DNA of 64,000 nucleotides from sequence record OR167180. One strand, written 5' to 3'. The stretch comes from Escherichia phage MIZ4. The position numbers were made by a program, and so were the translations under genes. This document shows positions 7,592 to 55,547 of the stretch, one piece after another. Position 1 is the stretch's first letter. Each line of letters starts with the position of its first letter. Below the pieces are notes generated by a model that worked only from the letters and a program-made list of their open reading frames with translations, did not search any database and was not told the origin of the DNA.

Positions 7592-7624
7592 GTGATTCTC
7601 CTTCTTTCGTTTCGGTGTGGGAGT

Positions 7625-25660: not shown

Positions 25661-26296
25661 TCAAGCGAATGTAGAAAGCAAATGTTTTGTTTCTTTCAGT
25701 TGTCGTTCAAGATCTTTGCGTTTCTCTTTAAGTTGCATTTTAGCATTATTTCGCTGTTTTTCAACATCTTTATCAATGCTCTTATTCCAGTTATCAATAT
25801 CAGAATAAGTTGGCATACCCAATTCTAGACCTAATGCGGTTGGATACAGGGTAACAGTCCATAAACCGCTAATCTTCTTAAATAGGTCTGGGTGTAGTGT
25901 ACTATCTACATCTTCCGGTGTCAACTCTTTTTCTTCTTTCGGTGGTGGGATCTCGTCATATGGTTCCAGTGCATTTACTTTAATATCAGATACCTCATCA
26001 AAGAATCCGCGTACATCCGCAGGAAATACACAAGCAATTTCCCAACCGTGATCACGCAGAGAAGTAATATTTTTCACTCCCCCACCATGTGTGATGATTG
26101 ATGTGACATTGCCATCGAGGTCCACCGAATTTACGAGAAATGGCTTATCGTCTGTCAGATCATTATAAAACTGTGCTTCGGCTGTAGTCATCTCCAGAAA
26201 CAGATCTCGGATCGGACGACCATCAGGTGCGTTACCTTCCTTGAGAGTATAAAAGCGACTTACGATCCATTTTGGCGGTAAAGCATTAGCGATCAT
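25661..26296 (-). CDS. Hypothetical protein (211 aa)
   Basis: ORF in the 41-61 interval. Confidence 0.5.
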   Translation of the reverse strand: MIANALPPKWIVSRFYTLKEGNAPDGRPIRDLFLEMTTAEAQFYNDLTDDKPFLVNSVDLDGNVTSIITHGGGVKNITSLRDHGWEIACVFPADVRGFFDEVSDIKVNALEPYDEIPPPKEEKELTPEDVDSTLHPDLFKKISGLWTVTLYPTALGLELGMPTYSDIDNWNKSIDKDVEKQRNNAKMQLKEKRKDLERQLKETKHLLSTFA

Positions 26297-42897: not shown

Positions 42898-44367
42898 CTA
42901 TTCCCCATTACCATTATACTTTCTTTGCTTAGTTATCCACACTCTAACCATCTCTACTGATTCACCGTCAGAGGGATCAAGAGTTTTTCCTTTTTTCTTC
43001 ATGCGGTACTTAAATCCGTTAAATCTTGCATTCTCTTGCTCGTTAAAGTCGAACATCTTTTTAAATGATTTTCTCCCTTTACGCTCACCGCATTCTAGCG
43101 GAATCATTCGGTCTGTTATTACATTGGCATTAGGTAGAAACGTTTTTAGATAATCTACCAACGCCCAATCAGGAACATATAGATTAACATTCTCCTTGCT
43201 CTCGTTGTCTCTCAGGTTACAACGCAAACATAATTGAAATGCTGGTTCCAGATAATCAGACACATGACGCGCTTTCAAAAACTCATTTGTCGGGAGATCA
43301 CAACTATTAGCAAGACCTTTTAAAATATCAATCTCCCATCGTTGAGGGTTAAAGCTGAACATCACAGCAACATTTTTATGATGAATGTAAGAGTTAAGAC
43401 CATAAGATCCGTAAGGTATCCGCTCACCAATACCATTTGTACACGCTTCACGGTCCCGATTCACGGTATAAATGAAGTCATCACCACATTCATTTTTAAC
43501 CATATCAACCAGACGTTCAAAGGTATTGTTTGTTTCTGACTGGTGACGCGACCATCGTTCGGAGTCCGTCATAAGGATGATGTTAACTCTATCTGTATTT
43601 TTATACTCTTTGAAATATAGTCTGGATTCTAGCGCACTCGGAACAAAATCGCAATTTGCATAGTATCGTAGATACTTCCCACTATATGTATCAAAGAGAT
43701 TTGCACATGCTATCGTAACCTTTTTAAAGTCTCCCCACGTACCGTGTTTGTTATCGTTCAAGAAAACAATTTTCGACCCATTCTTCCGGTGGCCTTCGTT
43801 ATGTTTTACCATAACGTTGATTTTCTTCTCTAATAACGCCTCATAAAGCCCTCTAAGAGAAGAATCGATCATATCAGTACCATCCTTTGCACTTTCTATC
43901 TTTTCTTTGATAGCGGCCTTCTCAGAGTCTTTTAGAACTAAGTTCTGTAGGCATTCCGATTCGTCGGCGATTGGTTCGCAATGCTTCGTGATAAGTTCAA
44001 GATTAGACTTAAACGGATACTCATTAAATTCAACCAGTTGAGGAACTTCATCAATGTAAAGAGCATAATCACCAAACATTTTTGAACGTTCCATATTAGA
44101 TAACGCTGTATGTGTAATGAATATCACATCAGCACCATCTTTAACTGATTGCATTATCGACGCTTGCACTGTCTTAAGGCTTCTTAGTCTTGTGCTATCA
44201 ATCAAGACAGCACGACCGCCCATTCTTTTAAACTTATTGTAAGATTGTTCACTTAAAACACGAGATGGCGAAGCAATAACCGCTTTTTCTTTTGTCTCTA
44301 GGACGTGGGAAAGTATAGCATCAGTTTTCCCCGCCGCTGGCAATGCGATTAATGTTTCAATCTTCAT
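42898..44367 (-). CDS. P-loop NTPase / helicase-like protein of unknown function (489 aa)
   Basis: Walker A-like ALPAAGKT at residues 8-15, Walker B-like LYIDEV ~100 aa downstream; Cys/His-rich basic C-terminal half; no confident family assignment. Confidence 0.55.
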   Translation of the reverse strand: MKIETLIALPAAGKTDAILSHVLETKEKAVIASPSRVLSEQSYNKFKRMGGRAVLIDSTRLRSLKTVQASIMQSVKDGADVIFITHTALSNMERSKMFGDYALYIDEVPQLVEFNEYPFKSNLELITKHCEPIADESECLQNLVLKDSEKAAIKEKIESAKDGTDMIDSSLRGLYEALLEKKINVMVKHNEGHRKNGSKIVFLNDNKHGTWGDFKKVTIACANLFDTYSGKYLRYYANCDFVPSALESRLYFKEYKNTDRVNIILMTDSERWSRHQSETNNTFERLVDMVKNECGDDFIYTVNRDREACTNGIGERIPYGSYGLNSYIHHKNVAVMFSFNPQRWEIDILKGLANSCDLPTNEFLKARHVSDYLEPAFQLCLRCNLRDNESKENVNLYVPDWALVDYLKTFLPNANVITDRMIPLECGERKGRKSFKKMFDFNEQENARFNGFKYRMKKKGKTLDPSDGESVEMVRVWITKQRKYNGNGE

Positions 44368-44672
44368 TAGAAACCCTTACGTCGTGCTTTCTGGCATTTC
44401 TTGATCATTTTATCAGAAATTTCGCGCTTAGGTGCAATCTCTTTCACACCGAAAGCACTAATGCCAAATTCAGAGAGAATATATTCAACTAACAATTCAC
44501 GCACACGCGCTTTACCGATATTCACGCCGTTATTTTTCAGATATGTCTGGCCTTCGACTTGCATCAGATCTAAATCAGCGTCGGTAATATTGATTTCTTC
44601 CATGCGCCCAAATCGAGAATAAACCATGTGTGCGATTGCATTGTGTACTAACATAATATATTCCTCACTCAA
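44367..44672 (-). CDS. Hypothetical protein (101 aa)
   Basis: ORF whose stop abuts the NTPase start. Confidence 0.45.
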   Translation of the reverse strand: MSEEYIMLVHNAIAHMVYSRFGRMEEINITDADLDLMQVEGQTYLKNNGVNIGKARVRELLVEYILSEFGISAFGVKEIAPKREISDKMIKKCQKARRKGF

Positions 44673-44675
44673 GAA

Positions 44676-44834
44676 TTACTTAATGATACTTACTTTACCA
44701 GATCCATGACAATGAGCGCAACACCCATCACCACGCAATCCTGTTCCGTTACAGTGTTTACACTTCTTCAACGGTAAAGCCATTATAGCAAATAAAGCAA
44801 TAATGAACACCGAAACTAAATTCTCAATAATCAT
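44676..44834 (-). CDS. Small membrane peptide with tandem CxxCxGxG (DnaJ-type) zinc-finger motifs (52 aa)
   Basis: Hand-translated MIIENLVSVFIIALFAIMALPLKKCKHCNGTGLRGDGCCAHCHGSGKVSIIK; not in ORF track (<60 aa). Confidence 0.4.
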   Translation of the reverse strand: MIIENLVSVFIIALFAIMALPLKKCKHCNGTGLRGDGCCAHCHGSGKVSIIK

Positions 44835-45093
44835 AAATCTCCCTCAGTTCTTTATAGCCTCCAATGTGCTCGTTGTCAATGAATATCTGGGGGTATACAA
44901 ATCGGAGGCTCTTTGAGTTCAGCCTCCCCGCCAGTTCTTCAATCATATCACGGTCGGGAATAATGTCAACCCCAACCTGCTTGAATACTGGTTTAAGTGT
45001 ATACGGAATACCCAGATCATCCAGTAGCTTCATTGCACTAATACAACCATAACAATGATAAGCCTCTTTCGGTATGCCGTATATCTCGATCAT
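44824..45093 (-). CDS. Glutaredoxin/NrdH-like redoxin
   Basis: 89 aa; CYGC active-site motif near the N-terminus; thioredoxin-fold pattern. Confidence 0.6.
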   Translation of the reverse strand: MIEIYGIPKEAYHCYGCISAMKLLDDLGIPYTLKPVFKQVGVDIIPDRDMIEELAGRLNSKSLRFVYPQIFIDNEHIGGYKELREIYDY

Positions 45094-45611
45094 TTCTCAG
45101 CCTTTAATCTTTCTAGTTCTTCTTCCAGTTCCTTGATCCGTTGGTCACGTTCAAAGTCACGCTGCAACTTAGTGGCGAATACTCGTTTAAACTGATTGTA
45201 ATCATCGATTTTAAACACTTCTTCTTCGCCATAGCGACGCACAGAAACTTCGTAGTTGTTGAAAAATTGTTCCAACATTGCATCAGTAGTCAGTTCTGAC
45301 GACACCACTTTAAAATAACGTTCTTCGGATTGCAAAAACCAGTTGTGCGCGTATTCCCGTACATCATCAACATCTCGACAGGTGTATGTTTTTCCATCAA
45401 TTTCAATCGCAGAAACATATTCGATATCTGATGCAATTTTTTCAAAAGCGATAACTTTAAATGTACGGTCACCGATAAAGTCTGCTATTGCATCATTTGC
45501 AACACTGGTTGCAAAGGCTTTCCGCGCTCGCTCGTTTTTCCACTGATAGGTCATACCAACAACAAACATATTACCATCAACAAACATATTACCATCCTCG
45601 CTCTTTACCAA
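45090..45611 (-). CDS. Paralog family A member (173 aa; true start possibly internal)
   Basis: N-terminal G(K/M)TY.WK motif; DGNMFV repeat from an 18-bp tandem duplication; C-terminal coiled coil. Confidence 0.45.
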   Translation of the reverse strand: MVKSEDGNMFVDGNMFVVGMTYQWKNERARKAFATSVANDAIADFIGDRTFKVIAFEKIASDIEYVSAIEIDGKTYTCRDVDDVREYAHNWFLQSEERYFKVVSSELTTDAMLEQFFNNYEVSVRRYGEEEVFKIDDYNQFKRVFATKLQRDFERDQRIKELEEELERLKAEK

Positions 45612-46413
45612 TCAAAAATTCAACTTCACGACGTTTAATGTCTTCTTGAAGGTCTTTAATCTTCTGGCGATCTTGCATTATTTCGTCCATCTTGTCAAGT
45701 GCTGCGATGAAATCATCGAAACGTTCAAAGGTTTTACCTTCATTTGCTTCGCCAAATTTAACCATTGTCAGGCCGTAACGACTACTAAACAGACGTTTCA
45801 ACTGTCCAACGATTTTAGAATCAGTGGTTATAACTTCCAATTCTTCTACTTCACGAAAGAATTTTCTATCAGAATCAATAAACCAGCTAGTTCCTTTATG
45901 GTTGCTATCTTCGGTTGCACTCATTAGAGTATGGTCTTTACCATCAATTTCAATTACATCAATTTGCCCACATGGACGAACATTTTTAACAGTAAAAGGT
46001 CTATAATTTATTGCTCGTGCAATAACATAATTAAGATTAGATACGTTTTCAGCATAATGGCAGAAGTCGGTCATAGCATTCACGTCTTTCCAAGTATAAG
46101 TTTTACCAACTTCCCATTTCTGGGGAACTTCTTCAACTTCACGAAAGAATTTTCTATCGAATGGACTAAAGAAATATGTTGCAGTCCAAATGTCTTTTCC
46201 TGTAGCAGTTTTCGCCGTATGATAAACACCGTCTAGCTCTATTGCATTAATCCAACCGTTGCCATCGATCTCGATGATGGTAAATGGCTTGTCACCAATA
46301 GCTGCACTAATATCGCTGTTAAGTGGAGAAAGAACACCTTCTCCGTTAGTAATAAACTCAGTTTTAGCGTTTACATCTTTCCAAGTGTAAGTTTTACCAA
46401 TTTCCCATTTCAT
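45589..46413 (-). CDS. Paralog family A member with internal domain duplication (274 aa)
   Basis: Two copies of KWE.GKTYTWKDVNA..DRKFFREVEE module. Confidence 0.5.
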   Translation of the reverse strand: MKWEIGKTYTWKDVNAKTEFITNGEGVLSPLNSDISAAIGDKPFTIIEIDGNGWINAIELDGVYHTAKTATGKDIWTATYFFSPFDRKFFREVEEVPQKWEVGKTYTWKDVNAMTDFCHYAENVSNLNYVIARAINYRPFTVKNVRPCGQIDVIEIDGKDHTLMSATEDSNHKGTSWFIDSDRKFFREVEELEVITTDSKIVGQLKRLFSSRYGLTMVKFGEANEGKTFERFDDFIAALDKMDEIMQDRQKIKDLQEDIKRREVEFLIGKERGW

Positions 46414-46425
46414 AATATATTCCCC

Positions 46426-46905
46426 TTAACCGATTTTATCAAGTTCGTTTAATGCTTTCTCAGCTTCCTGTATAGCTTGCACCCTTTCCGGCATTTTGTC
46501 AAGAAAATCTTTCAACTCTTCAAAACTGGAGATATGACGCAAGGCATTAGCACCGATAGCCGCATGTGATTTGCATTCAAAGCGAATTTTATAATTATCC
46601 ATAGCCAATTTGAGAAGATCAATTAATTTAGATTCTTCTGGAATAATAATTTCTTCAAATCTGCTACGGTCATGATCCAGAAACCAACAAGATAGACCTA
46701 CATCGGTTGAACTCATATAAGTTCCATCATGAAGATAAACAGACCGCACGTATCCTTTTTTCGCATCAACCGACGCAACTTTAAACGGTAATCGCAGATA
46801 TTTCAAATAATCAACATCATACCATTTAAAAAATTGATTTGCATCTTTTACATCTTTCCACGCATAGGTCTTACCAGCTTCCCATTTCATAATATCATCT
46901 CTCAT
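46426..46905 (-). CDS. Paralog family A member (159 aa)
   Basis: MKWEAGKTYAWKDV.. N-terminus shared with neighbours. Confidence 0.5.
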   Translation of the reverse strand: MRDDIMKWEAGKTYAWKDVKDANQFFKWYDVDYLKYLRLPFKVASVDAKKGYVRSVYLHDGTYMSSTDVGLSCWFLDHDRSRFEEIIIPEESKLIDLLKLAMDNYKIRFECKSHAAIGANALRHISSFEELKDFLDKMPERVQAIQEAEKALNELDKIG

Positions 46906-47431
46906 TTTTGATACGTGATTCTAATTGGATCATACGGTCGCGCGTTTGTTTGTATTCTCGGATAGCACCGATCCGGCTAGGCATACCATCCAGTACGCTC
47001 TTAATACCTTCTAGGGTAGTAATTTTGGCAATGCTATTATGTAACCCCATCTTATCGATCAACTGAATGTCGTAGGCTTCCATAAGCAGACCCAGGCGTT
47101 CTAAAGTTAGGTCTTCTTCTTTTTCTTCCGAATCTGGAATCTTATGTTCAATAGTAACTTCGGTAAAGAAACGACGCTCACCCGACCAAAACCACACGCC
47201 GGAACAGCCAATAGGGGATTCTTTTAACGTCATAGAGTCGAAATTACTACCAATAATAGTAATTTCTCTAACATCACCATCATCGTCAAGGTCTTCTACC
47301 CTAAACGGGCGACCAGCCAACAAGTCAACAATACATCTGTTAATAGACGACGAAAATTTAGTCAGTTCGGCTTTCGACGCTTCGCATTCAATCTTGTAAG
47401 TTTTACCAACTTCCCATTCCATAATAATCAC
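46895..47431 (-). CDS. Paralog family A member (178 aa)
   Basis: MEWEVGKTYK.. and ERRFFTEV motifs shared with neighbours. Confidence 0.5.
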   Translation of the reverse strand: MIIMEWEVGKTYKIECEASKAELTKFSSSINRCIVDLLAGRPFRVEDLDDDGDVREITIIGSNFDSMTLKESPIGCSGVWFWSGERRFFTEVTIEHKIPDSEEKEEDLTLERLGLLMEAYDIQLIDKMGLHNSIAKITTLEGIKSVLDGMPSRIGAIREYKQTRDRMIQLESRIKNER

Positions 47432-47432
47432 C

Positions 47433-47942
47433 TCAAATAATTTTCACTGGAATACTATTAACAATCTTGTATTGTACTTGATTGTCAGACCCCCGCCACG
47501 GCTTCTTCGTTGGCATATCTTTAATATAACGCCCATCGATGAACATGTCAACTGATTCTACAATTTTTCTTTGCTCATCATTCAATTGGTCAAGGGTATA
47601 ACCAGACCATAGCCAAATATCTTTATTTGGCATCCATGATTTTACTTCATCGATGATCCGCTGTACACCCTTTAAATTGCGTTTATACAGTGGATCGCCA
47701 CCTAAGAATGTTAGCCCCTGAATAAAATCAGGTCTAAGCAGATCCAGAATCAATCCCATTGTATCATCGGTGAATGGTTCCCCGTTCTTAGGATTGAGTA
47801 GGCTAGCATTAAAGCAACCATCACATGCGTGTGAACATCCGGTAACGTAAAGGGAGACTCTCACTCCCTCACCGTTCACCATATCACAATCTTTAATATC
47901 GGCATAGCGTAGTTTGCCGTATGTATCAGAACTCATATTCAA
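47433..47942 (-). CDS. nrdG: Anaerobic ribonucleotide reductase activating protein NrdG (radical SAM)
   Basis: CSHACDGC cluster plus GGDP motif; 169 aa; adjacent to the nrdD region. Confidence 0.85.
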   Translation of the reverse strand: MNMSSDTYGKLRYADIKDCDMVNGEGVRVSLYVTGCSHACDGCFNASLLNPKNGEPFTDDTMGLILDLLRPDFIQGLTFLGGDPLYKRNLKGVQRIIDEVKSWMPNKDIWLWSGYTLDQLNDEQRKIVESVDMFIDGRYIKDMPTKKPWRGSDNQVQYKIVNSIPVKII

Positions 47943-48078
47943 TTACCCCGAACTCGTTTACAATCTGCGCTTTATAGTAACCACCGCGAGATGCTAATAG
48001 ATAAGCTGGGCTTAGGTATTCGTATTCACGGATTTCTACTTGTGCGTTTTCAGTTTCCCAAATCAGTAAAGTCCACAT
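47926..48078 (-). CDS. Hypothetical small protein (50 aa; start at internal ATG with GGAGAAT SD)
   Basis: ORF 47926..48153 trimmed; promoter at 48121..48149. Confidence 0.35.
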   Translation of the reverse strand: MWTLLIWETENAQVEIREYEYLSPAYLLASRGGYYKAQIVNEFGVIEYEF

Positions 48079-48120
48079 ATTTGATTCTCCTGTAAAGTTG
48101 TATCTCGTCTTGATGAATAT

Positions 48121-48149
48121 AGTATAGGGGATCTCGTGATCCCCGTCAA
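48121..48149 (-). promoter_or_regulatory. Sigma70-like early promoter (TTGACG-17-TATACT) with GGGATC/GATCCC spacer palindrome
   Basis: Minus-strand motif. Confidence 0.45.
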
Positions 48150-48153
48150 GCAT

Positions 48154-48687
48154 TTATTTTAAATTTTTTCGAATGTATTCAGACCATTCCTTCCCTGTCA
48201 TTTCGGACCCATTCTGGAAACTGAAATATTCATACGGCATCGAGTCAAGATAAAACAGGATCATACATCGCGCCATATAATACCAATCACGATTAAAGTA
48301 AACTACGTTATCGCCAGTACCATCAACCCCTTTATCATAACCATCGCGGGTACGGGCGACCCATTGAATAGTATCAGTTTTCTCACGGATAGTAACAGGT
48401 TCCCAATATCCAGCACATCCAGCATGACCACACGAACAAGTAAGGAAATATTGACCTTTTGCTTTGTTGTCATCCCATTCACGATGAATTGGTTTGATTT
48501 CGTGAAACAGTGCCAAACAATCATGATTATGCAACACTGGCTTACCATCAATCAATGCATGGAATGTATACAAACGACCCGTAGACAAATAGCTATCCTC
48601 ACGCTCAACCAGTTCAATAGCAATCTTTTTAGCTCGTTCTTTGTGTCGTTGTGCTTTACGTTTACGGTTTAATGATTTCATAGTCAC
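48154..48687 (-). CDS. Hypothetical protein (177 aa)
   Basis: ORF between nrdD and nrdG. Confidence 0.5.
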   Translation of the reverse strand: MTMKSLNRKRKAQRHKERAKKIAIELVEREDSYLSTGRLYTFHALIDGKPVLHNHDCLALFHEIKPIHREWDDNKAKGQYFLTCSCGHAGCAGYWEPVTIREKTDTIQWVARTRDGYDKGVDGTGDNVVYFNRDWYYMARCMILFYLDSMPYEYFSFQNGSEMTGKEWSEYIRKNLK

Positions 48688-48698
48688 CTCACATTATT

Positions 48699-49238
48699 TC
48701 AAAGATCGCGATATTGTACATTATGAAAATGAGAACTTGCATTACCAATATTGTAGATAACAAATTCTTCATCCGGCGCTTGCGCTACAAATTGAGTATG
48801 AGCAACCGCTACGACTTTAAAAATACGATCCGTGATCTTGTGCTTAATTTCTGCCCCTACTTCCATAGGAACATATTCATTTGTTTCTGTTTCAGTCGCA
48901 AAACAGCCATCTTCTTCATAAGCACGAACAAATCGGTCGCAATCAGTACGCTTAACAAATTCAAGAGTATATAATTCTCGTGAATTGTCGGTATAGACCA
49001 ATACAGAATTATTATGATAGCGAATCACATACAGGTTATTATCATCGTCAATTACGCAAAAGCTACGGATTCCTTCGCCTTGACTCCAGCAGACATTAAC
49101 CACCGTTCCTCTAATAAAAAAACTTTCCTTTAAATTAAAACTAGTCAATGTGCTAGCGTGCATTTTAACAACAACACCATCACCAATTTCCAGTTTACGA
49201 AGTTTAACTTCTTTGCTCAGTACACAAAACATCATCAT
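48699..49238 (-). CDS. Hypothetical protein (179 aa)
   Basis: ORF between nrdD and nrdG. Confidence 0.5.
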   Translation of the reverse strand: MMMFCVLSKEVKLRKLEIGDGVVVKMHASTLTSFNLKESFFIRGTVVNVCWSQGEGIRSFCVIDDDNNLYVIRYHNNSVLVYTDNSRELYTLEFVKRTDCDRFVRAYEEDGCFATETETNEYVPMEVGAEIKHKITDRIFKVVAVAHTQFVAQAPDEEFVIYNIGNASSHFHNVQYRDL

Positions 49239-49267
49239 GTTGTCCTCTCGTTGTTTTCGATGTGAGC

Positions 49268-49295
49268 ATTATACATTAGCTAATCATATTGTCAA
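49268..49295 (-). promoter_or_regulatory. Sigma70-like early promoter (TTGACA-16-TATAAT)
   Basis: Minus-strand consensus hexamers immediately downstream of the nrdD terminator. Confidence 0.55.
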
Positions 49296-49300
49296 CACCC

Positions 49301-49332
49301 CAAAACGAAAAGCCGACCCTTTCGGATCGGCT
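49301..49332 (-). terminator. Terminator-like hairpin after nrdD
   Basis: agccgaccctttcggatcggct imperfect inverted repeat with flanking T-run on the minus strand; near-identical copy at ~61691. Confidence 0.45.
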
Positions 49333-49337
49333 AAAAA

Positions 49338-51200
49338 TTACATGTGCTTAACGCGGTTTACCATCTCGGAGTGTTTCCCGTGGTTGAATGGACGCAGATC
49401 AACAGATCCAAGATATCCACTAACGCGACGGATAACATTCATCTTTTCCAGATTGTCATTGCCGCAATCAGGACAAACAAAACCAGACTCGGTCGCTCTC
49501 ATTTCCTTAGTAGATCCGCATACATGACATACATCAGAAGGAGTATTAACACCGAAGTAGTGCAATTTATCCATTGCATAATCGACTACAGTTTCAAGAC
49601 CTTTCAGGTTGTTTTTCATGTCTGGGAACTCAACATAAGAGATCATGCCACCGGACGCCAGCCAGTGATAATCTTTCTCAAAGTCGATTTTCTCAAATGG
49701 AGTGACTTTCCGGTCTACGTCAAGGTGGAATGAGTTTGTGTACCAGTCTTTATCGGTAGCACCCTTAACAATACCAAACTGCTCTCTGTCCAGTCGATTA
49801 AATCGATAGCAAAGGCTCTCGGCTGGCGTACCGTAAAGACTAAACCCAAGTCCGGTTTCGTCCTTCCATTTTTCAGTATAATGACGCAAGATCTTAAGAA
49901 TATGTTTACCGTATCGCTGCGCATCTTCCGAATCAAACGGATGAACACCAAACAGGACGCTCAATACCTCATGTAAACCAATATATCCAAGAGAGATACT
50001 AGCGCGACCATCTTTCAACACTTCCAAAATTTCATCGTTTTGATGAATACGGAAAAATGCACCTTCTGTATACAGCACCGGAGCAACATTGGCTTTAGCC
50101 CCTTTTAAAGCGTCTACGCGACTCATGAGCGCATCAAAGCAAATATGCATACGATTAGCTAGCTCTTGTTCGAATAGCTCAATTCTGCGCATTACAGACG
50201 CTTTACCAGCACGACGAGCGGCAATAAGGGCAATACGCGGAAGATTCAGAGTCACAACACCTAAGTTATTACGTCCGTCTAATACTTCCTCGCCTTTCTC
50301 ATTATGCCACACACCCAGGAAGCTACGACAACCCATCGGGCTAACCGGAACACTAGATCCAGTGATGCTACGGTTATTCTTCGCAGAGATATAATCAGGG
50401 TAAAGACGCTTACTAGAACATTCCAATGCAAGTTGCTTAATGTCGTAGTTCGGATCTTCCGGTTTAAGGTTTAATCCTTCTTCTAAGAACATCACCAGCT
50501 TAGGAAACACCGGAGTGATACCATCTTTACCTAAACCTTTAGTTCGAACGTTCAGGATCGCTTTCTGAATCAGTTTTTCTTCCCAGCTAGTACCCATACC
50601 AAAGGTTAAAGTCACAAAAGGCGTTTGACCGTTGGTGGAGAACAAAGTGTTGATTTCATATTCCAACGCTTGATACCCGTCTAGCGTTTCTTTTTCTGTC
50701 TTCTCTTGTGCATAGAGAGTATCAGCTTTGATTCCGTAGGTCTCGGCATCAGCAAGGTGTTTATGATATGTTTTCTCAACGTATGGCGCTAAAACCTGAT
50801 CGATGTTTGCAATTGTGGTCCCGCCATATTGATGACTTGCCACCTGTGCGATAATTTGAGCGGTTACAGCACAAGCAACGCCGATTGATTTCGGACTTTC
50901 GATTTGTGCGCTACCCAATTTAAAACCATTCTCTAACATGTCTTTGAGATTAACAAGACAGCAGTTAGTAAACGGCATAGCGGGTGCATAATCCATATCA
51001 TGATAATGAATGTCACCGTCTACATGCGCTTTATAGATGTGCTCAGGTAACACGGTTTTAGCAATCTGTTTAGACACAGCACCAGCAATCAGATCTCGAC
51101 GTGTCGGGAATGTTCGCGCGTCTTTGTTCGCGTTCTCTTTGCTTACTTCGTTTTCTTTACCCGTTGCGATCTCTGTAATGTCTTTGATTAGTTTTTCCAT
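49338..51200 (-). CDS. nrdD: Anaerobic ribonucleoside-triphosphate reductase NrdD (uninterrupted)
   Basis: 620 aa; glycyl-radical motif RVSGYLG and C-terminal Zn ribbon CHVCGS..CPDCG; no intron. Confidence 0.9.
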   Translation of the reverse strand: MEKLIKDITEIATGKENEVSKENANKDARTFPTRRDLIAGAVSKQIAKTVLPEHIYKAHVDGDIHYHDMDYAPAMPFTNCCLVNLKDMLENGFKLGSAQIESPKSIGVACAVTAQIIAQVASHQYGGTTIANIDQVLAPYVEKTYHKHLADAETYGIKADTLYAQEKTEKETLDGYQALEYEINTLFSTNGQTPFVTLTFGMGTSWEEKLIQKAILNVRTKGLGKDGITPVFPKLVMFLEEGLNLKPEDPNYDIKQLALECSSKRLYPDYISAKNNRSITGSSVPVSPMGCRSFLGVWHNEKGEEVLDGRNNLGVVTLNLPRIALIAARRAGKASVMRRIELFEQELANRMHICFDALMSRVDALKGAKANVAPVLYTEGAFFRIHQNDEILEVLKDGRASISLGYIGLHEVLSVLFGVHPFDSEDAQRYGKHILKILRHYTEKWKDETGLGFSLYGTPAESLCYRFNRLDREQFGIVKGATDKDWYTNSFHLDVDRKVTPFEKIDFEKDYHWLASGGMISYVEFPDMKNNLKGLETVVDYAMDKLHYFGVNTPSDVCHVCGSTKEMRATESGFVCPDCGNDNLEKMNVIRRVSGYLGSVDLRPFNHGKHSEMVNRVKHM

Positions 51201-51244
51201 TGTATCACCTATGAAAAAGCGGGATTTCTCCCGCTCGTTGATAG

Positions 51245-51739
51245 TTATTTTACCAGTTCTGCTAATTCTTTTTCCGCCGCTTCCAGTTCAGCTTTAAGCT
51301 GTTTAATCTCTTGTCGCTTCTTATTAGCGGCTTCCTGCTTACTATTTCGGATAACCTGATCTAGATACAACTCCCAATCCTGAATATTTTTGATAATGTA
51401 TCCGTCAACATTAATTGGTCGGAGATTCAGTACAGCTTCCAGTTTAGTCGCAAAAACTTTAATTGCTGGTGTGAAGTATTCATATTCGTTATCTTCAAAC
51501 CAATAACCTAGACTTGCATTATCAATACGAAGACGAAGTTTAAGATCAAGGTCTTTATCGTCGGTGTAAAGATCTTTCACCTGCCCCATCGAGCTAACAA
51601 CAACTTTAAAACGAATTTTATCTACACCGCCAAAAACATCTTCAAGAATATCAGCAATTGAGCTATTAGCGCAAGATTGGTCGCTGAATGCGTCAAGGTT
51701 TTCTTTAGTTACAGTATACCAAACATCTTGTACCCACAT
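51245..51739 (-). CDS. Paralog family B member (164 aa)
   Basis: C-terminal coiled coil; conserved SD-spacer; promoter upstream. Confidence 0.45.
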   Translation of the reverse strand: MWVQDVWYTVTKENLDAFSDQSCANSSIADILEDVFGGVDKIRFKVVVSSMGQVKDLYTDDKDLDLKLRLRIDNASLGYWFEDNEYEYFTPAIKVFATKLEAVLNLRPINVDGYIIKNIQDWELYLDQVIRNSKQEAANKKRQEIKQLKAELEAAEKELAELVK

Positions 51740-51769
51740 AATATAATCCTCTCGTTGTTAAGTGGGAGT

Positions 51770-51798
51770 ATTATAGCATACTCCCTTCGCATGTCAAG
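51770..51798 (-). promoter_or_regulatory. Sigma70-like early promoter (TTGACA-17-TATAAT) with GGGAGTAT/ATACTCCC palindrome
   Basis: Minus-strand motif. Confidence 0.55.
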
Positions 51799-52972
51799 CA
51801 CTAACTTTTTTCTTTACTGCTTTCACCTTCTGGCGAATTGCTCGAATCTCTTCGATCTCTTTTTCAGTATCTTTAACAATTTCTTTGCGATTCTGAATAT
51901 CTTTATCGAGATTATCATCAAGTTTAGGCAGCATGTCAATCAAGAACTTTTTAAGGTCTTTCAGGTTGCGAATAACAGTACCTTCACCCATTACCGCCAC
52001 GCCTACACCATCCGGCAGATCACCAAACAGTTTAACCAGTTCAGACAGATGATCATGATCTTCTAGTGCTTCTTCCGGTTCAGATGGCAGTTCAACAAAG
52101 TAATAACGTTCATCATTGCTGATCAGGTGATACCAGCAAAGCCCAAAAGATTTAGGAGTATATTCTACACCACCAACTTCAACTGCGTCAACACTTCCAT
52201 AATCATCTACTTTAGTTACCTTAAATCCTTGTCCCAGCTTTTGAACAATTTCAACAACATGACTTGATACAGTTTCAGCGGTAAACCAATATGGCAAATT
52301 ATGCTGATTTGGCTTGTAGCGTTCACCTACTTTAAATCTCTGACCAGCCGCTTGCATAGAATGAAATTGTTGTTTCGTGATTTCCGCGAAGTATTCAAAT
52401 TCGCCACCATCAAACACACAAGCCCATTGATCACAAAAACGATCTGCCTTAACAGTTTCACCTTTCGCGGTGATCATGGTAGCTGATCCGTGCAATTCTT
52501 CTTCAACTAAAAAGCCATATTCGACAAAATCAACAAGTTTCATAGCTTCTTTGTGATCTGGATCATGCTCTCCCCAGAATCGCTTAAATTCTTGCAAACC
52601 TTCTGGGGTAAACGAATAACATTTACCTTTTTCAAAGTAAGTCGGCATTGCATCCTCTTTCTTGTTCATCGCTTCGTATGCCTCTTTTGAGATGCGTTTA
52701 AAGTATTTACGCTCATTGTGCATAATCATAGTAGCCCAATAATCAACAATATCATTAGCGGAATAAACTACATCTCCAGCTTCAATAGTAATAACATGAC
52801 CGTGGTCATCTTTTTCTAATACTTTAAAGCCCTTTTCTACGATTTCAGCAACTCGAATATGACCACGGCGCGAAGCATCGGTCAGAATAATTGAATAGCG
52901 AGAAAAGTCTAGAAACTCATCTTTACCGCCTTCACGGAATGCATAGTAATGACCTTCAAAGAATTTAGCCAT
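51794..52972 (-). CDS. Paralog family B member, multi-repeat (392 aa)
   Basis: Repeated GFKVL..VD..G and NERKYFKRI(S/T)K modules shared with 53036..53596 and 53611..53883. Confidence 0.5.
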   Translation of the reverse strand: MAKFFEGHYYAFREGGKDEFLDFSRYSIILTDASRRGHIRVAEIVEKGFKVLEKDDHGHVITIEAGDVVYSANDIVDYWATMIMHNERKYFKRISKEAYEAMNKKEDAMPTYFEKGKCYSFTPEGLQEFKRFWGEHDPDHKEAMKLVDFVEYGFLVEEELHGSATMITAKGETVKADRFCDQWACVFDGGEFEYFAEITKQQFHSMQAAGQRFKVGERYKPNQHNLPYWFTAETVSSHVVEIVQKLGQGFKVTKVDDYGSVDAVEVGGVEYTPKSFGLCWYHLISNDERYYFVELPSEPEEALEDHDHLSELVKLFGDLPDGVGVAVMGEGTVIRNLKDLKKFLIDMLPKLDDNLDKDIQNRKEIVKDTEKEIEEIRAIRQKVKAVKKKVSA

Positions 52973-53003
52973 AATATAATCCTCTCGTTGTTTAGATGGG
53001 AGT

Positions 53004-53032
53004 ATCTTACTACTCCCGTTTCATCATGTCAA
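53004..53032 (-). promoter_or_regulatory. Sigma70-like early promoter (TTGACA-17-TAAGAT) with GGGAGTA/TACTCCC palindrome
   Basis: Minus-strand motif. Confidence 0.5.
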
Positions 53033-53035
53033 GCG

Positions 53036-53596
53036 TTAAAGTGACTTTTTAATCTCTTTCAGTTCTTCCACTTTCTCGGCGCTGAATTTAGCGTAGGTAT
53101 CATGTCGAATAATTTCACTTTCAAGAAAGGTTTCCAGTCGAGATCTATTTTCAATAAGGAACTCTTTCAGGTCTTCCGCGTTCTTGACAAAGATTTTATT
53201 GTCGGTAATGTCATCTTCAATCGCAAAGGAGATAGAGCGAACTTTACCAAACAAGTTAATCAGATCTTCCAGAGATTCTTCTTTCTTAACTGGTTTCATT
53301 TCTTCAAACTGCTTTTTAGTGATGCGTTTAAAGTATTTGCGCTCGTTTGCAGCAATCAGAACAGATGCACCTTCATACCCATGAGTTTCTACCAGATACA
53401 CACGCCCCATCGCATCAACAGTGAGAACTTTAAAGCCGTTACAAAGCACGTCATACAAGAACTTATTATGTTGCGGACATCGTTTGATAAATTCTGCGGC
53501 TGTTTCTGCACTACGGAAAGTGTAATAACGACCTCGTTCAAAAACAGCATCATTTGAAGACTTAGCCGGATACAATTTATACATTTTCTGTACCAT
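53036..53596 (-). CDS. Paralog family B member (start at MVQKMYKLY with GAGGATTATATT SD)
   Basis: NERKYFKRITKKQFEEM module; ORF 53036..53614 trimmed to the ATG with SD. Confidence 0.5.
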   Translation of the reverse strand: MVQKMYKLYPAKSSNDAVFERGRYYTFRSAETAAEFIKRCPQHNKFLYDVLCNGFKVLTVDAMGRVYLVETHGYEGASVLIAANERKYFKRITKKQFEEMKPVKKEESLEDLINLFGKVRSISFAIEDDITDNKIFVKNAEDLKEFLIENRSRLETFLESEIIRHDTYAKFSAEKVEELKEIKKSL

Positions 53597-53610
53597 AATA
53601 TAATCCTCTA

Positions 53611-53883
53611 TCATTTCACTAATTGAACAGCACGAAACAGAATGCGGTCACACGGAAGCAGCATAAATTCCCAACGCGGATCAAAGTCTTTAGCGGTGTA
53701 TGTTTTCCCATCAACAGAGATTTCACTTACATAACCAATAGGTGACACTTTAAGAACAGTAAATCCATTCTTGATTGCTTCGTAGGTATCTTTCAGACCT
53801 TCGTAGTCATCCTCTAGGAAGTCTTTACGTGCTTGCTCAGATTTAAAAACATAGGCCACACCAGCTTTAAACATCTTACGCAT
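53611..53883 (-). CDS. Paralog family B member (90 aa)
   Basis: GFTVLKV..GKTYTAKDF module. Confidence 0.45.
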   Translation of the reverse strand: MRKMFKAGVAYVFKSEQARKDFLEDDYEGLKDTYEAIKNGFTVLKVSPIGYVSEISVDGKTYTAKDFDPRWEFMLLPCDRILFRAVQLVK

Positions 53884-53914
53884 TGTTGATTCTCCTTCTT
53901 GATTAGATGGGAGT

Positions 53915-53943
53915 ATTTTACTACTCCCGTTTCATGTTGTCAA
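53915..53943 (-). promoter_or_regulatory. Sigma70-like early promoter (TTGACA-17-TAAAAT) with GGGAGTA/TACTCCC palindrome
   Basis: Minus-strand motif just downstream of gene 49. Confidence 0.5.
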
Positions 53944-53946
53944 CTC

Positions 53947-54420
53947 CTATCTTAATCTTTGTATGAATTGTTTCTTATACTTCTTCGTGATTTCTTCTCG
54001 TGTATCAGCGTCGCAGTATTCGAAACCTTCTGCGTCCATAATATCAACCATCTCCGCGCGTGTCAAGCGTGAAAATCGTTTTACTTTATCAACAGCATAT
54101 TGAGGATGTAAATGATTGTTGGTGTAGTCTCCTTTGATGTAATTAACATAGTTTGTAGCCCAAACAACGAAATCAGCACCTAAAGCACCAACACCAAACC
54201 GTTTAAAGTCTCCGGTCAACGATCCTTCTAGGCGGTTGCAACACGAATGAAGCAATCCCCTTACGCGGCCTTGCCCTTTCCCATCTAGATCATGATCATG
54301 GTCAAGATGGTTTTTGCTCATATCCTCAAAAAGTGGCAATTGACAAAGGGGGCAAATGCCCCCCTGTTTTTCGAATAGTTCTTGTTTGTACTCTTTAGCA
54401 CTCTTAGCAGTCAGTAACAT
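53947..54420 (-). CDS. 49: Endonuclease VII (Holliday junction resolvase) gp49
   Basis: Blocks matching T4 EndoVII (C.LCQ, NHLDHDH, VRGLL, IKGDYTNNHLHP, FSRL..EM, GFEY, KKQ); start set at MLLTAK with GGAGGG SD. Confidence 0.9.
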   Translation of the reverse strand: MLLTAKSAKEYKQELFEKQGGICPLCQLPLFEDMSKNHLDHDHDLDGKGQGRVRGLLHSCCNRLEGSLTGDFKRFGVGALGADFVVWATNYVNYIKGDYTNNHLHPQYAVDKVKRFSRLTRAEMVDIMDAEGFEYCDADTREEITKKYKKQFIQRLR

Positions 54421-54444
54421 AAATTCACCCTCCAAAGAAGGTAT

Positions 54445-54726
54445 TTAACCATTAATCTTGTTTTTGACTACAAAGGATCTGAACTCATCAAAACCACCTA
54501 TATAATCACCATTATAGAAAATCTGCGGCATGGTGGCAATAACTTCTACCCCTGCGCGATCCTGAATGTCGGCAATGATAGAATCAATCTTTACCGGACG
54601 ACCGTTTTCGTCCACACCATCATTAACCGGAATGTAGATGTAAGGGATCTTACGCGATTCACAAAGGCGCTTTGCATTCTGGCAATACTTACAGTTGTAA
54701 CCTTCAAAACCAAAAATTTCTACCAT
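54445..54726 (-). CDS. nrdC: Glutaredoxin/thioredoxin NrdC-like
   Basis: CKYCQNAKRL active site resembling T4 NrdC CVYCDNAKRL; ..MPQIF..IGGFD.. Confidence 0.8.
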   Translation of the reverse strand: MVEIFGFEGYNCKYCQNAKRLCESRKIPYIYIPVNDGVDENGRPVKIDSIIADIQDRAGVEVIATMPQIFYNGDYIGGFDEFRSFVVKNKING

Positions 54727-54734
54727 GTTATACC

Positions 54735-55547
54735 TCAATCTACGTTAGTTACATAAACTTCTTGCGTATCAGAAGACTTACCACCTGAACGATCTAGGCA
54801 ATAGGTCTTATTCAACAAGACGCAGTTTAAATCATTCCGCTTGATAAAGTCAAGAAGATGATCATTTACCTTTCCCTTATGATGTGTGACATTACTGATA
54901 CCAAACTGAAAACCACGCGCCATAATAGATTCTACCCACTGATAGAATTTAATCTCTTCTTCTTCACTCCAGAACTTATTATATTCTGCCGATGTGATCC
55001 AATATGGCGGGTCCAAATAAACGAAATCACCTGGCAAGATCTCGATCTCGTCATAGCGACCAGACGTAAAACTGATTCGACCGTCTTTGTTTTCTTCCTT
55101 AAAATTCAGGACACGCTCTACCGCGTTTTCGTTAAAAGTCCGGCGACCAAAATTAGCATTAAATTCTCCCTTCCTGTTATGGCGGTTAATGTTGCTAAAA
55201 CTGTGCTGAATCAGAACAAACAGAGATAGCGGATCTGGATTCTCATTATACTTCTTACGGAATGCCATGTAAGCGTCTTTATCTTCGCGAGACAAACCAT
55301 TTTCGGCAATAATACGCTTGATCGTAGAAACCGGATCAGGACACTCGTCAATCGCTTTGTACGCGTCAATTAAGCGGTGATCATAGTCATTAGCCAGCAC
55401 ATCCCCTTCTACGTACAGAGACACGCTCAAGCCACCACAAAAGGCATCGACAAAGCGGTTATAGTGCTTAGGGAAATACTTACTAACACCAGGCAATAAC
55501 TTTTCCTTATTGCCCGTATAGGGAATTAAACCTAATGCTTTCTTCAT
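54735..55547 (-). CDS. dam: DNA adenine methyltransferase (Dam-like, N6-adenine)
   Basis: Motif I FCGGLSV and motif IV DPPY; 270 aa. Confidence 0.85.
   Translation of the reverse strand: MKKALGLIPYTGNKEKLLPGVSKYFPKHYNRFVDAFCGGLSVSLYVEGDVLANDYDHRLIDAYKAIDECPDPVSTIKRIIAENGLSREDKDAYMAFRKKYNENPDPLSLFVLIQHSFSNINRHNRKGEFNANFGRRTFNENAVERVLNFKEENKDGRISFTSGRYDEIEILPGDFVYLDPPYWITSAEYNKFWSEEEEIKFYQWVESIMARGFQFGISNVTHHKGKVNDHLLDFIKRNDLNCVLLNKTYCLDRSGGKSSDTQEVYVTNVD

What the first reader, a model, noticed from the sequence alone, without database searches (positions are those of the whole stretch)
51245..53883. Second paralogous cluster (family B) with repeated GFKVL..VD and NERKYFKRI modules, each gene behind its own promoter
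ORFs 51794..52972 (392 aa, several repeats), 53036..53596 and 53611..53883 share GFKVL(E/T)VD..G and NERKYFKRI(S/T)K(E/K) motifs; 51245..51739 has a related C-terminal coiled coil. Each is preceded by a GGGAGTA-palindrome promoter and the same GAGGATTATATTATG initiation region, suggesting duplication of whole promoter-gene cassettes between nrdD and gene 49.
Basis: seen in the sequence. Interest (0 to 1): 0.5.

Follow-up and report, generated by a model that had tools for sequence, protein, structure and literature searches.

The report
GoF/Frd.2-type early gene cluster
Four neighbouring early genes of an RB49-like coliphage are real but ancient paralogues of the known T4 GoF/Frd.2/MotB.1 family of small beta-barrel proteins, driven by known promoter-hairpin cassettes (PeSLs), so this is a local expansion of known things.

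Summary
The window is Escherichia phage MIZ5, a Krischvirus (RB49-like T4-type phage). The four ORFs between gene 49 and nrdD exist as described. Their protein-level self-similarity is far above chance.

- **Domain content.** The 392-aa protein has three tandem ~100-aa domains plus a helical tail. The 186-aa protein has one domain plus the same tail, and the 90-aa protein is one bare domain. The 164-aa protein is a diverged full member, not just a coiled coil.
[quoted passage not shown] 2025). RefSeq already labels two of the genes "goF mRNA metabolism modulator".
- **Promoters.** The GGGAGTA palindrome promoters are PeSLs (Arbiol et al. 2010). There are three for four genes, and the same type precedes unrelated genes.
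- **Start region.** GAGGATTATATTATG is a phage-wide initiation context.
- **Age.** Coding regions share only 15-37% identity, so the promoter similarity does not date the gene duplications.

Function remains unknown. I infer non-enzymatic, multivalent early binding proteins. What is new is modest: the family expansion, the three-domain protein and the shared tail.

The parts
53915..53943 (-). PeSL 1. Sigma-70 early promoter (TTGACA, 17 nt, TAAAAT). The hairpin GGGAGTA/TACTCCC (53909-53928) encloses the -10 hexamer. The gene 49 stop codon lies 3 nt upstream of the -35 hexamer.
   Evidence: Promoter scan 11/12. Exact palindrome. RNA fold -14.1 kcal/mol, z -2.6.
53611..53883 (-). p90: a single GoF/Frd.2-type barrel domain with no tail. 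First gene of a two-gene early operon.
   Evidence: Domain HMM E 3e-20. blastp to p186, p392 and a173. phrog_16115, phrog_622 and phrog_5347.
53036..53596 (-). p186: one barrel domain (aa ~15-106, basic, pI 9.3) plus a tail (aa ~107-186) of helix, beta-hairpin, helix and a long helix. It has no promoter of its own and starts 14 nt after the p90 stop.
53004..53032 (-). PeSL 2. Promoter TTGACA, 17 nt, TAAGAT, with hairpin 52998-53017. The p186 stop codon lies 3 nt upstream of the -35 hexamer.
   Evidence: 76% identical to PeSL 1 over 79 nt.
52655..52972 (-). p392 repeat 1 (aa 1-106). Carries the GFKVLEKDDHG and NERKYFKRISKE motifs.
   Evidence: Domain HMM i-E 3e-17. z 15-19 against repeats 2 and 3 and against p186.
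52352..52654 (-). p392 repeat 2 (aa 107-207). The most diverged and most acidic repeat (pI 4.7).
   Evidence: Domain HMM i-E 2e-13..
52064..52351 (-). p392 repeat 3 (aa 208-303).
   Evidence: Domain HMM i-E 5e-18. Groups with T4 Frd.2 in an unbootstrapped NJ tree.
51794..52063 (-). p392 C-terminal tail (aa 304-392) plus the stop codon. Homologous to the p186 tail. The stop TGA lies inside the -35 hexamer of PeSL 3.
   Evidence: blastp p392 246-383 against p186 51-186, E 2e-12. Tail-tail z 9.4. Alignment A3.
51770..51797 (-). PeSL 3. Perfect sigma-70 promoter TTGACA, 16 nt, TATAAT, with an 8-bp hairpin (51764-51785) around the -10 hexamer.
   Evidence: Promoter scan 12/12. Fold -14.8 kcal/mol, z -3.3.
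51245..51739 (-). p164: a diverged family member. It has a barrel domain (aa 1-~95, with a helix in place of the beta3-beta4 loop) and a tail with a 45-residue terminal helix.
   Evidence: hhalign against the other members: probability 82%, E 1e-5. phrog_3710 shared with p392 and cluster A. AF2 pLDDT 90 with the same element order. BFVD hits overlap those of p186, including GoF of phage VR7.
51214..51236 (-). Intrinsic terminator (GAGCGGGA-GAAA-UCCCGCUU plus a U run) closing the cluster just before the nrdD ribosome-binding site.
   Evidence: Fold -17 kcal/mol, z -3.6. Annotated as a terminator in phage GEC-3S.
45090..47431 (-). Related cluster ('family A'). Four tightly packed genes of 173, 274 (two domains), 159 and 178 aa, next to nrdG. 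Same domain plus tail architecture.
   Evidence: HMM of the B units alone hits them at E 2e-10 to 7e-4. Shared PHROG profiles. blastp p90-a173 38% identity, E 6e-9.
25661..26296 (-). Ninth family member (211 aa, domain plus coiled-coil tail), immediately downstream of the gene 41 helicase.
   Evidence: Domain HMM E 3e-7. Sequence. A 211-aa ECD7 protein named 'Dc2', presumably its orthologue, is among the structural hits of p186.

Best explanation
**What it is.** The region is a Krischvirus expansion of the T4 GoF/Frd.2/MotB.1 family of early proteins.

- Each gene encodes one to three copies of a ~95-residue SH3-like ('LSm-like') five-stranded barrel. Two helices are inserted between beta1 and beta2.
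- Three of the four genes also carry a shared C-terminal module: helix, beta-hairpin, helix, then a long amphipathic helix.
- The paralogues are old (15-37% identity). They were generated by gene duplication and by tandem duplication of the domain inside one gene (p392).
- They are still being reshuffled between related phages at sub-gene scale.

**Expression (inferred from sequence).** Host sigma-70 RNA polymerase would start at three PeSL early promoters right after infection. This gives the units p90+p186, p392 and p164. The PeSL hairpins may attenuate read-through, and an intrinsic terminator insulates nrdD.

**Function (inferred, not shown).**
- The proteins are non-enzymatic binding modules. 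Only hydrophobic core residues are conserved across the family.
- The barrel would bind a macromolecular ligand.
- Tandem domains and a dimerising tail would add avidity.
- The net effect would be modulation of host or phage macromolecules during takeover.
- The only experimental lead in the family is the stabilisation of mRNA by T4 GoF(D25Y).

**My probabilities.**

| Claim | Probability |
|---|---|
| Family membership | ~0.95 |
| Early expression from PeSLs | ~0.85 |
| Dimerising tail | ~0.5 |
| Ligand is protein | ~0.4 |
| Ligand is RNA | ~0.3 |
For: **Identity of the phage and existing annotation.** The region is 100% identical to phage MIZ5 and 95% to RB49. RefSeq names p392 and p186 'goF mRNA metabolism modulator', and RB49 calls p392 frd.2.

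**Family membership.**
- A domain HMM built from 74 units hits T4 GoF at 5e-19, Frd.2 at 3e-14 and MotB.1 at 4.5e-8, over the full domain length.
- PHROG profiles are shared across both clusters.

**Fold.**
- AF2 models have pLDDT 85 and 90.
- BFVD hits are almost all from T4-like phages and include a protein named GoF.

**Selection.** dN/dS against RB49 is 0.09-0.24, so the genes are maintained by purifying selection.

**Promoters.** They score 12/12, 11/12 and 10/12 against consensus, with 7-8 bp hairpins over the -10 hexamer. They match the PeSL description, and promoter and terminator activity were shown experimentally for other PeSLs.

**No catalytic signature.** Only Y, F and F columns reach 90% conservation in 74 units.

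**A conserved site for the family.** A metagenomic relative (nrdD 82% identical) has three single-domain family genes in the same gene 49-nrdD interval. PeSL-like promoters lie in two of its intergenic regions, and a terminator precedes nrdD.

**Reshuffling.** Sharply bounded divergent patches lie inside the domains and tails when MIZ5 is compared with Phi1 and RB49.
Against: - No function has been shown for any wild-type member. [quoted passage not shown]
- Most domains here are acidic (pI 4.2-5.3). This argues against generic RNA binding. The p186 domain is the exception (pI 9.3).
- Oligomerisation of the tail was not modelled.
- Expression timing and hairpin attenuation are inferred from sequence only.
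Confidence: 0.8

Rival explanations
1. RNA-directed function. The barrels act like Sm/Hfq-type RNA binders. The tandem and dimeric proteins chaperone or shield particular phage or host mRNAs from decay early in infection, as GoF(D25Y) does for the gene 41 message.
For: - T4 GoF(D25Y) lengthens the half-life of an mRNA reporter post-transcriptionally, and the family was proposed to be LSm-like (PMC12152347).
- The p186 domain is basic (pI 9.3). Its conserved beta5-helix motif ERKYFKRITKKQFEEMKPVKK is rich in Lys and Arg.
- The ninth member lies directly downstream of gene 41.
Against: - Wild-type GoF and MotB.1 had little effect, and D25Y is interpreted as a gain of function.
- Nine of the eleven domains of clusters A and B that were measured are acidic.
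- The element order differs from Sm: two helices sit between beta1 and beta2 instead of one N-terminal helix.
- No conserved basic or aromatic surface positions stand out.
Confidence: 0.3
2. Protein-directed adaptors or decoys. The barrels are SH3/FeoA-like protein-interaction modules. Each diverged paralogue targets a different host protein (takeover or counter-defence), and the coiled-coil tails make them bivalent.
For: - The closest solved folds are protein-interaction SH3-type barrels (Mib repeat, FeoA, the IdeR C-terminal domain).
- The surfaces are mostly acidic.
- The genes lie in hyperplastic, PeSL-rich regions that hold adaptive accessory genes.
- Divergence between related phages is concentrated in the domain cores and tails, while the flanks stay at 95-100%.
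- Copy number and architecture vary between related phages.
Against: - No partner is known. Pull-downs of T4 GoF recovered GoF as by far the dominant protein.
- dN/dS of 0.09-0.24 gives no gene-wide sign of positive selection.
- No anti-defence function is reported for any member in the papers searched.
Confidence: 0.4
3. The cluster arose by recent duplication of complete promoter-gene cassettes, so the promoter similarity and the gene similarity share one origin.
For: - PeSL-plus-ORF cassettes are known to excise and recombine in RB49 and phi1.
- PeSL 1 and PeSL 2 are each other's closest relatives among the seven copies. The hairpin and the spacer upstream of it are near-identical.
Against: - Coding units share 15-37% identity, against 76-96% for the promoter and RBS segments.
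- The same PeSL type and the same start context also precede other genes.
- p186 lacks a promoter.
- Much of the duplication in p392 is intragenic.
- The locus already holds three diverged members in a relative whose nrdD is 82% identical.
Confidence: 0.1
4. The similarity is compositional or due to chance, and the ORFs are not a real family.
For: The p164 domain gives no significant pairwise score against the other units (z 0.1-2.5). Coiled-coil tails can inflate scores.
Against: - z up to 19 against shuffles.
- HMM E-values of 1e-13 to 1e-24 per domain.
- Independent PHROG profiles agree.
- The predicted structures are concordant.
- The genes are under purifying selection.
Confidence: 0.01

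Closest known systems
T4 GoF (ComC-alpha), Frd.2 and MotB.1: the phage 'LSm-like fold' family (Kim et al. 2025, PMC12152347)
   Same: - Homologous ~90-aa N-terminal barrel (HMM E 5e-19, 3e-14 and 4.5e-8).
- Same predicted five-strand SH3-like fold, with FeoA and IdeR among the nearest solved folds.
- Domain, flexible linker, then a variable C-terminal part.
- Sigma-70-type early promoters here; the T4 members are early proteins.
- Confined to T4-like phages.
   Different: - Three genes are described for T4, each with one domain and at scattered loci. At least nine genes with twelve domains are present in the ~151 kb of MIZ5 scanned, and eight of them lie in two clusters flanking nrdG-nrdD.
- One protein has three tandem domains and another has two.
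- Eight of the nine share a tail ending in a long helix. That paper does not describe such a tail.
- Domain charge ranges from pI 4.3 to 9.3.
PeSL (promoter-early stem-loop) cassettes of RB49/phi1 (Arbiol et al. 2010, PMC2839356; Comeau et al. 2014, PMC4122927)
   Same: - Near-perfect TTGACA-N16/17-TATAAT promoters.
- A G-rich/C-rich hairpin overlapping the -10 box, one of the common positions described.
- The upstream gene's stop codon at the 5' edge, and the Shine-Dalgarno sequence plus ATG at the 3' edge.
- Location next to nrdD, which the paper names as a PeSL-associated gene.
   Different: Nothing essential. The three elements here belong to one sequence subtype (GGGAGTA, loop, TACTCCC), with at least seven copies in the ~151 kb scanned. 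Three of the seven are in this 2.7-kb cluster.
FeoA / IdeR-C-terminal / Mib-repeat SH3-type barrels (CATH 2.30.30.90)
   Different: - No sequence relationship. There are no Pfam hits, and identity in the structural alignments is 7-16%.
- The two-helix insertion between beta1 and beta2 is specific to the phage family.
- No metal-binding histidines.
Hfq / Sm (LSm) proteins
   Same: A small bent five-stranded antiparallel sheet, and a suggested link to mRNA stability in the family through GoF(D25Y).
   Different: - No Sm1 or Sm2 sequence motifs and no Pfam LSM or Hfq hit.
- The helices are placed differently.
- There is no evidence of ring hexamers. AlphaFold3 gave no confident multimers for the T4 members.

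Membership tests
GoF/Frd.2/MotB.1 phage LSm-like-fold family | [quoted passage not shown] | tested here: met
   An HMM of 74 units (window plus metagenome representatives) hits GoF at 5e-19, Frd.2 at 3e-14 and MotB.1 at 4.5e-8 over the full domain length. blastp GoF against p186, E 2e-4. PHROG 'goF' families phrog_8944, 13003 and 2980.
GoF/Frd.2/MotB.1 phage LSm-like-fold family | Bent five-stranded antiparallel beta-sheet (SH3-like barrel) with FeoA/IdeR-type nearest structural neighbours | tested here: met
GoF/Frd.2/MotB.1 phage LSm-like-fold family | Domain joined by a flexible linker to a variable C-terminal part | tested here: met
   pLDDT drops to 71-77 (p186, residues ~100-140) and to 54-60 (p164, residues ~91-110) between domain and tail. 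Tails differ across the family. p90 has no tail.
GoF/Frd.2/MotB.1 phage LSm-like-fold family | Early gene of a T4-like phage | tested here: met
   The host genome is a Krischvirus (Straboviridae). Sigma-70-type promoters score 10-12 of 12. Timing is inferred from sequence and not measured.
GoF/Frd.2/MotB.1 phage LSm-like-fold family | Effect on mRNA stability (shown only for the T4 GoF D25Y mutant) | not testable with these tools
   Needs reporter or half-life assays. Position 25 of GoF corresponds to R39 of p186 by manual inspection of the sequences only.
PeSL (promoter-early stem-loop) | Near-consensus sigma-70 promoter (TTGACA-N16-18-TATAAT) | tested here: met
   12/12 (51797-51770), 11/12 (53943-53915) and 10/12 (53032-53004).
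PeSL (promoter-early stem-loop) | Stable G-run/C-run stem-loop within or next to the promoter (here overlapping the -10 box) | tested here: met
   Exact palindromes: 5 observed in the window against 0 expected. 7-8 bp stems of -14 to -15 kcal/mol, z -2.6 to -3.3.
PeSL (promoter-early stem-loop) | Intergenic position bounded by the upstream stop codon and the downstream Shine-Dalgarno sequence plus ATG, in a plastic region | tested here: met
   The stop codons lie 0-3 nt from, or inside, the -35 hexamer, and GAGG/GGAG plus ATG lie downstream. The paper names nrdD as a PeSL-associated gene.
PeSL (promoter-early stem-loop) | Terminator or attenuator activity, and recombination between copies (mini-circles) | not testable with these tools
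   No U-tract follows these hairpins. Activity was shown by Arbiol et al. for other PeSLs only.
Hfq/Sm (LSm) proteins | Sm1/Sm2 sequence motifs detectable by the Pfam LSM or Hfq models | tested here: not met
   No LSM or Hfq family appears among the Pfam hits at E<=1 for any of the four proteins.
Hfq/Sm (LSm) proteins | N-terminal helix followed by five strands, and closest structural neighbours that are Sm/Hfq proteins | tested here: not met
FeoA (Pfam PF04023) / SH3-like metal-regulator domains | Sequence membership in the FeoA family | tested here: not met

The most novel reading that the evidence does not exclude
The gene 49-nrdD and nrdG-flanking loci may work together as a diversity-generating array. 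PeSLs and the highly conserved beta5-linker patch (NERKYFKRITKKQFEEM...) would serve as recombination joints. Barrel domains and tails would be swapped, fused (p392, a274) or split at these joints among co-infecting Krischviruses. The result would be a repertoire of multivalent binders aimed at variable host factors such as defence or RNA-decay proteins.
Probability: 0.12. Interest if true: 0.6.

Novelty: new member of a known kind. Interest (0 to 1): 0.3.

Why it matters
The GoF/Frd.2/MotB.1 family is abundant, early and conserved, yet no wild-type function is known. A recent T4 knock-down screen flagged frd.2 as its only fitness gene of unknown function (PMC11879866).

RB49-like phages carry at least nine members. 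They include a natural three-domain protein, a two-domain protein, a bare domain, and both acidic and basic versions. This gives experimenters a ready-made series for asking what the barrel binds and whether valency matters.

It also corrects the annotation. Cluster A, p90 and p164 are 'hypothetical' in the records seen, but they belong to the same family. The label 'goF mRNA metabolism modulator' on p392 and p186 rests on distant homology to a gain-of-function mutant phenotype, not on tested activity.

Tried and rejected
- **Pfam and NCBIfam** gave only sub-threshold noise: RecT, LYR, HALZ, DUF5505 and others. I rejected these as chance.
- **Rfam** found no RNA family in 44000-55000.
- **PDB sequence-profile search** found no solved relative (best E 0.26).
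- **The word-indexed homologue search** returned almost only Krischvirus orthologues. The exhaustive profile search was needed to reach distant members.
- **About 14 of the 88 hits in that exhaustive search** are giant VCBS/cadherin-like or other repeat proteins. They match only profile positions ~25-70 many times over. I rejected them as spurious.
- **Gene conversion at the NERKYFKRI motif.** The 53-nt patch is 77% identical at DNA level. On reading the sequence, eight of nine identical residues use the same codon. That is too few sites to separate conversion from codon bias, so the question is left open.
Its three domains rest on sequence evidence.
- **The NJ tree of domain units** is unbootstrapped at 15-37% identity and is used only as a hint.
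Full report
**Source and layout**

The 2.75-kb region is 100% identical to Escherichia phage MIZ5 (OR167181.1). It is 95-98% identical to about 55 other RB49-like phages of the genus Krischvirus. All genes run on the minus strand. In transcription order they are:

| Gene | Coordinates |
|---|---|
| nrdC | ~54445-54738 |
| Gene 49, endonuclease VII | 53947-54435 |
| p90 | 53611-53883 |
| p186 | 53036-53596 |
| p392 | 51794-52972 |
| p164 | 51245-51739 |
| nrdD | 49338-51200 |

RefSeq calls p392 and p186 'goF mRNA metabolism modulator'. The original RB49 annotation calls p392 frd.2. p90 and p164 are 'hypothetical'.

Yes, at the protein level.
- blastp shows that p392 holds three consecutive ~100-aa repeats. 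Each matches the single domain of p186, and repeats 1 and 3 match p90. The last ~85 residues of p392 match the C-terminal half of p186 (E 2e-12).
- Against 500 shuffles, all ten pairs of the five domain units score z = 3.0-19.3. The two tails score z = 9.4.
GFKV..VD..G is the beta2-beta3 hairpin. NERKYFKRI is the short helix plus beta5, followed by another helix.
- The second motif is well preserved only in p392 repeat 1 and p186.

At the DNA level a self-comparison finds only three things:
- the promoter and RBS segments (79 nt at 76%, 26 nt at 96%);
- one 53-nt patch at 77% over the NERKYFKRI codons;
- nothing else of note.

**The fourth gene**

p164 gives no pairwise signal in its domain (z 0.1-2.5). 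Three results show it is a diverged full member, not just a protein with a similar coiled coil:
- A profile of its orthologues aligns colinearly with a profile of the other members. The alignment covers 135 columns, residues 1-158 against 18-182, with probability 82% and E 1e-5.
- It shares phrog_3710 with p392 and with the cluster at 45-47 kb.
- Its AF2 model (pLDDT 90) has the same order of elements as p186: beta1, two helices, beta2, beta3, beta4, short helix, beta5, linker, helix, beta-hairpin, long helix. A helix replaces the beta3-beta4 loop.

Both models hit an overlapping set of T4-like phage proteins in BFVD. That set includes a protein named GoF in phage VR7.

**One superfamily, not a separate 'family B'**

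- An HMM built only from the five B units finds four more genes at 45090-47431. They are 173, 274 (two domains), 159 and 178 aa, with E from 2e-10 to 7e-4.
- These four genes have the same domain-plus-tail architecture and share PHROG profiles with cluster B.
- p90 is closer to a173 (38% identity, E 6e-9) than to its own neighbours.
- I scanned 151.5 of the 165.5 kb of MIZ5 with a broader domain HMM. This found a ninth member at 25661-26296, just downstream of the gene 41 helicase.
- The phage therefore has at least nine genes and twelve domains of this kind.

**What the domain is**

- It has no Pfam or NCBIfam model and no solved relative by sequence.
- The broader HMM hits T4 GoF (5e-19), Frd.2 (3e-14) and MotB.1 (4.5e-8) over the full domain.
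- Kim et al. 2025 (PMC12152347) described these three proteins as a Tevenvirinae family with an N-terminal 'LSm-like' five-stranded barrel and variable C-terminal domains.
- The p186 domain is modelled at pLDDT above 90.
- No Hfq or Sm protein is among the top 60 hits, and no Sm motif is detected. 'SH3-like' therefore describes the fold better than 'LSm'.
- An exhaustive profile search of 1.84 billion representative proteins gives only 88 hits at E<=1e-3. About 14 are spurious repeat proteins.
- The remaining hits are 58-392 aa. Three-domain proteins are rare: the p392 orthologue and one 354-aa protein.
- Named relatives come from T4-like phages of Escherichia, Serratia, Proteus, Providencia, Pectobacterium, Aeromonas, Acinetobacter, Citrobacter, Edwardsiella and others.

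**Promoters and start regions**

- The three palindromes are exact (5 in the window against 0 expected).
- Each encloses the -10 hexamer of a sigma-70 promoter scoring 12/12, 11/12 or 10/12.
- Each folds into a 7-8 bp hairpin.
- The upstream stop codon lies 0-3 nt from, or inside, the -35 hexamer.
- This is the PeSL element of RB49/phi1. Arbiol et al. 2010 describe a near-perfect early promoter plus a G-run/C-run stem-loop, commonly overlapping the -10 box, preferentially in plastic regions, with nrdD named as an associated gene (PMC2839356; PMC4122927).
- The same subtype precedes other genes at 7337 and 7619. It also occurs twice elsewhere in the genome.
- p186 has no promoter and is co-transcribed with p90.
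- GAGGATTATATTATG occurs nine times exactly in the window, and 16 times within two mismatches. It is the phage's preferred initiation context, not a mark of this family.
- A strong intrinsic terminator at 51214-51236 closes the cluster before nrdD.

**History of the cluster**

- Domain units share 15-37% identity. The two repeats of a274 are the exception at 52%.
- The duplications are therefore old. They include intragenic tandem duplication as well as gene duplication.
- The much higher similarity of the PeSLs reflects functional constraint or homogenisation, not co-duplication with the genes.
- A metagenomic relative (nrdD 82% and gp49 57% identical) keeps the same dam-nrdC-49-[family genes]-nrdD order. 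It carries three single-domain-plus-tail genes of 196, 204 and 189 aa. PeSL-like promoters lie in two of its intergenic regions, and a terminator precedes nrdD.
- The interval is thus a long-standing home of the family, with variable content.
- Within the genus, dN/dS against RB49 is 0.09-0.24, compared with 0.02-0.05 for nrdD and gp49. The genes are under purifying selection, but less tightly than the two core neighbours.
- A sliding comparison with Phi1 and RB49 shows sharply bounded divergent patches in a 95-100% background:

| Patch | Coordinates | Identity |
|---|---|---|
| p186 domain core | 53350-53520 | 74-83% to both |
| p186 tail | 53050-53270 | 58-73% to Phi1, ~98% to RB49 over most of the patch |
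| p392 repeat 3 | 52200-52450 | 78-87% to Phi1 |
| p164 domain | 51550-51650 | 85-93% |

- This pattern suggests exchange of sub-gene modules between phages.
- Metagenomic variants of cluster A with one domain instead of two, and a chimera of two paralogues, point the same way.

**Function**

Nothing here or in the literature establishes the wild-type activity.
- In T4 the three genes are dispensable in the laboratory.
- GoF is abundant, at roughly 20,000 copies per cell.
- The D25Y mutant stabilises a reporter mRNA. Wild-type GoF and MotB.1 barely do.
- A dCas13d screen scored frd.2 as a fitness gene.

From the anatomy I infer non-catalytic binding proteins.
- Only three aromatic core positions reach 90% conservation across 74 units.
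- Valency is tuned by tandem domains and probably by a dimerising terminal helix.
- Most domains are acidic (pI 4.2-5.3). The p186 domain is basic (pI 9.3) and p90 is near neutral.
- One common nucleic-acid ligand is therefore unlikely. Different members may have different targets.
- I rate a protein ligand at about 0.4 and an RNA ligand at about 0.3.

**Verdict**

Both components are already known: the GoF/Frd.2/MotB.1 family and the PeSL cassettes. The 'whole cassette duplication' reading is not supported.

What is new is modest:
- the size and clustering of the family in Krischvirus;
- the natural three-domain and two-domain proteins;
- the shared tail module;
- the domain-scale mosaicism.

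Noticed in passing
window 45090-47431 (-): Four tightly packed or overlapping genes (173, 274, 159, 178 aa) next to nrdG belong to the same superfamily as the finding. They share its domain-plus-tail architecture. They have no individual PeSLs and appear to be co-transcribed.
   Followed up: partly
window 25661-26296 (-): A ninth family member (211 aa, domain plus coiled-coil tail) lies directly downstream of the gene 41 helicase (26347-27759). A 211-aa ECD7 protein named 'Dc2' is among the BFVD structural hits and is presumably its orthologue. This is curious because T4 GoF(D25Y) acts on the gene 41 mRNA.
   Followed up: partly
window 51550-51650, 52200-52450, 53050-53270, 53350-53520: Sharply bounded patches of 58-87% nucleotide identity to Phi1 and/or RB49 lie inside the family genes, in a 95-100% background. 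The NERKYFKRITKKQFEEM segment between the two p186 patches stays at 98-99%. One patch ends at a PeSL. This suggests domain- and tail-level recombination.
   Followed up: partly
proteins P0001, P0005, P0006, P0050 (metagenomic relatives of window 45589-47431): Some relatives of the two-domain protein a274 carry only repeat 1 or only repeat 2 plus the tail. P0050 joins the N-terminal half of a178 to the a274 tail. These are signs of recombination between paralogues.
   Followed up: no
L008 5522-9957 (ENA contig k119_34593): A more distant T4-like phage (nrdD 82% identical) keeps the gene 49-nrdD interval but fills it with three single-domain family genes (196, 204, 189 aa). PeSL-like promoters, with a different palindrome (GAGGGTAT...ATACCCTC), lie in two of its intergenic regions. 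A similar terminator precedes nrdD.
   Followed up: partly
window 6225, 15037, 28071, 51737, 52970, 53594, 57103, 58674, 59780 (all -): GAGGATTATATTATG occurs nine times exactly, and 16 times within two mismatches (0.3 expected). It looks like a strongly preferred translation-initiation context across the phage's early genes.
   Followed up: partly
window 7337-7356 and 7619-7638; L005 20272-20291 and 29921-29940: Four further copies of the GGGAGTA...TACTCCC PeSL subtype precede other genes. Three of the seven known copies sit in the 2.7-kb cluster studied here.
   Followed up: partly
window 49268-49332 (-): Immediately after nrdD there is a 9-bp terminator hairpin (49332-49311), followed by a perfect 12/12 sigma-70 promoter (49295-49268). 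This looks like another terminator-promoter junction in front of the next gene (48699-49238).
   Followed up: no
proteins P0056, P0062, P0068, P0075, P0085, P0103 and others: Giant bacterial VCBS/cadherin-like or other repeat proteins score up to E 7e-21 against the domain profile. They do so by summing many partial matches to profile positions ~25-70. They are false positives and worth remembering if a family model is built.
   Followed up: yes
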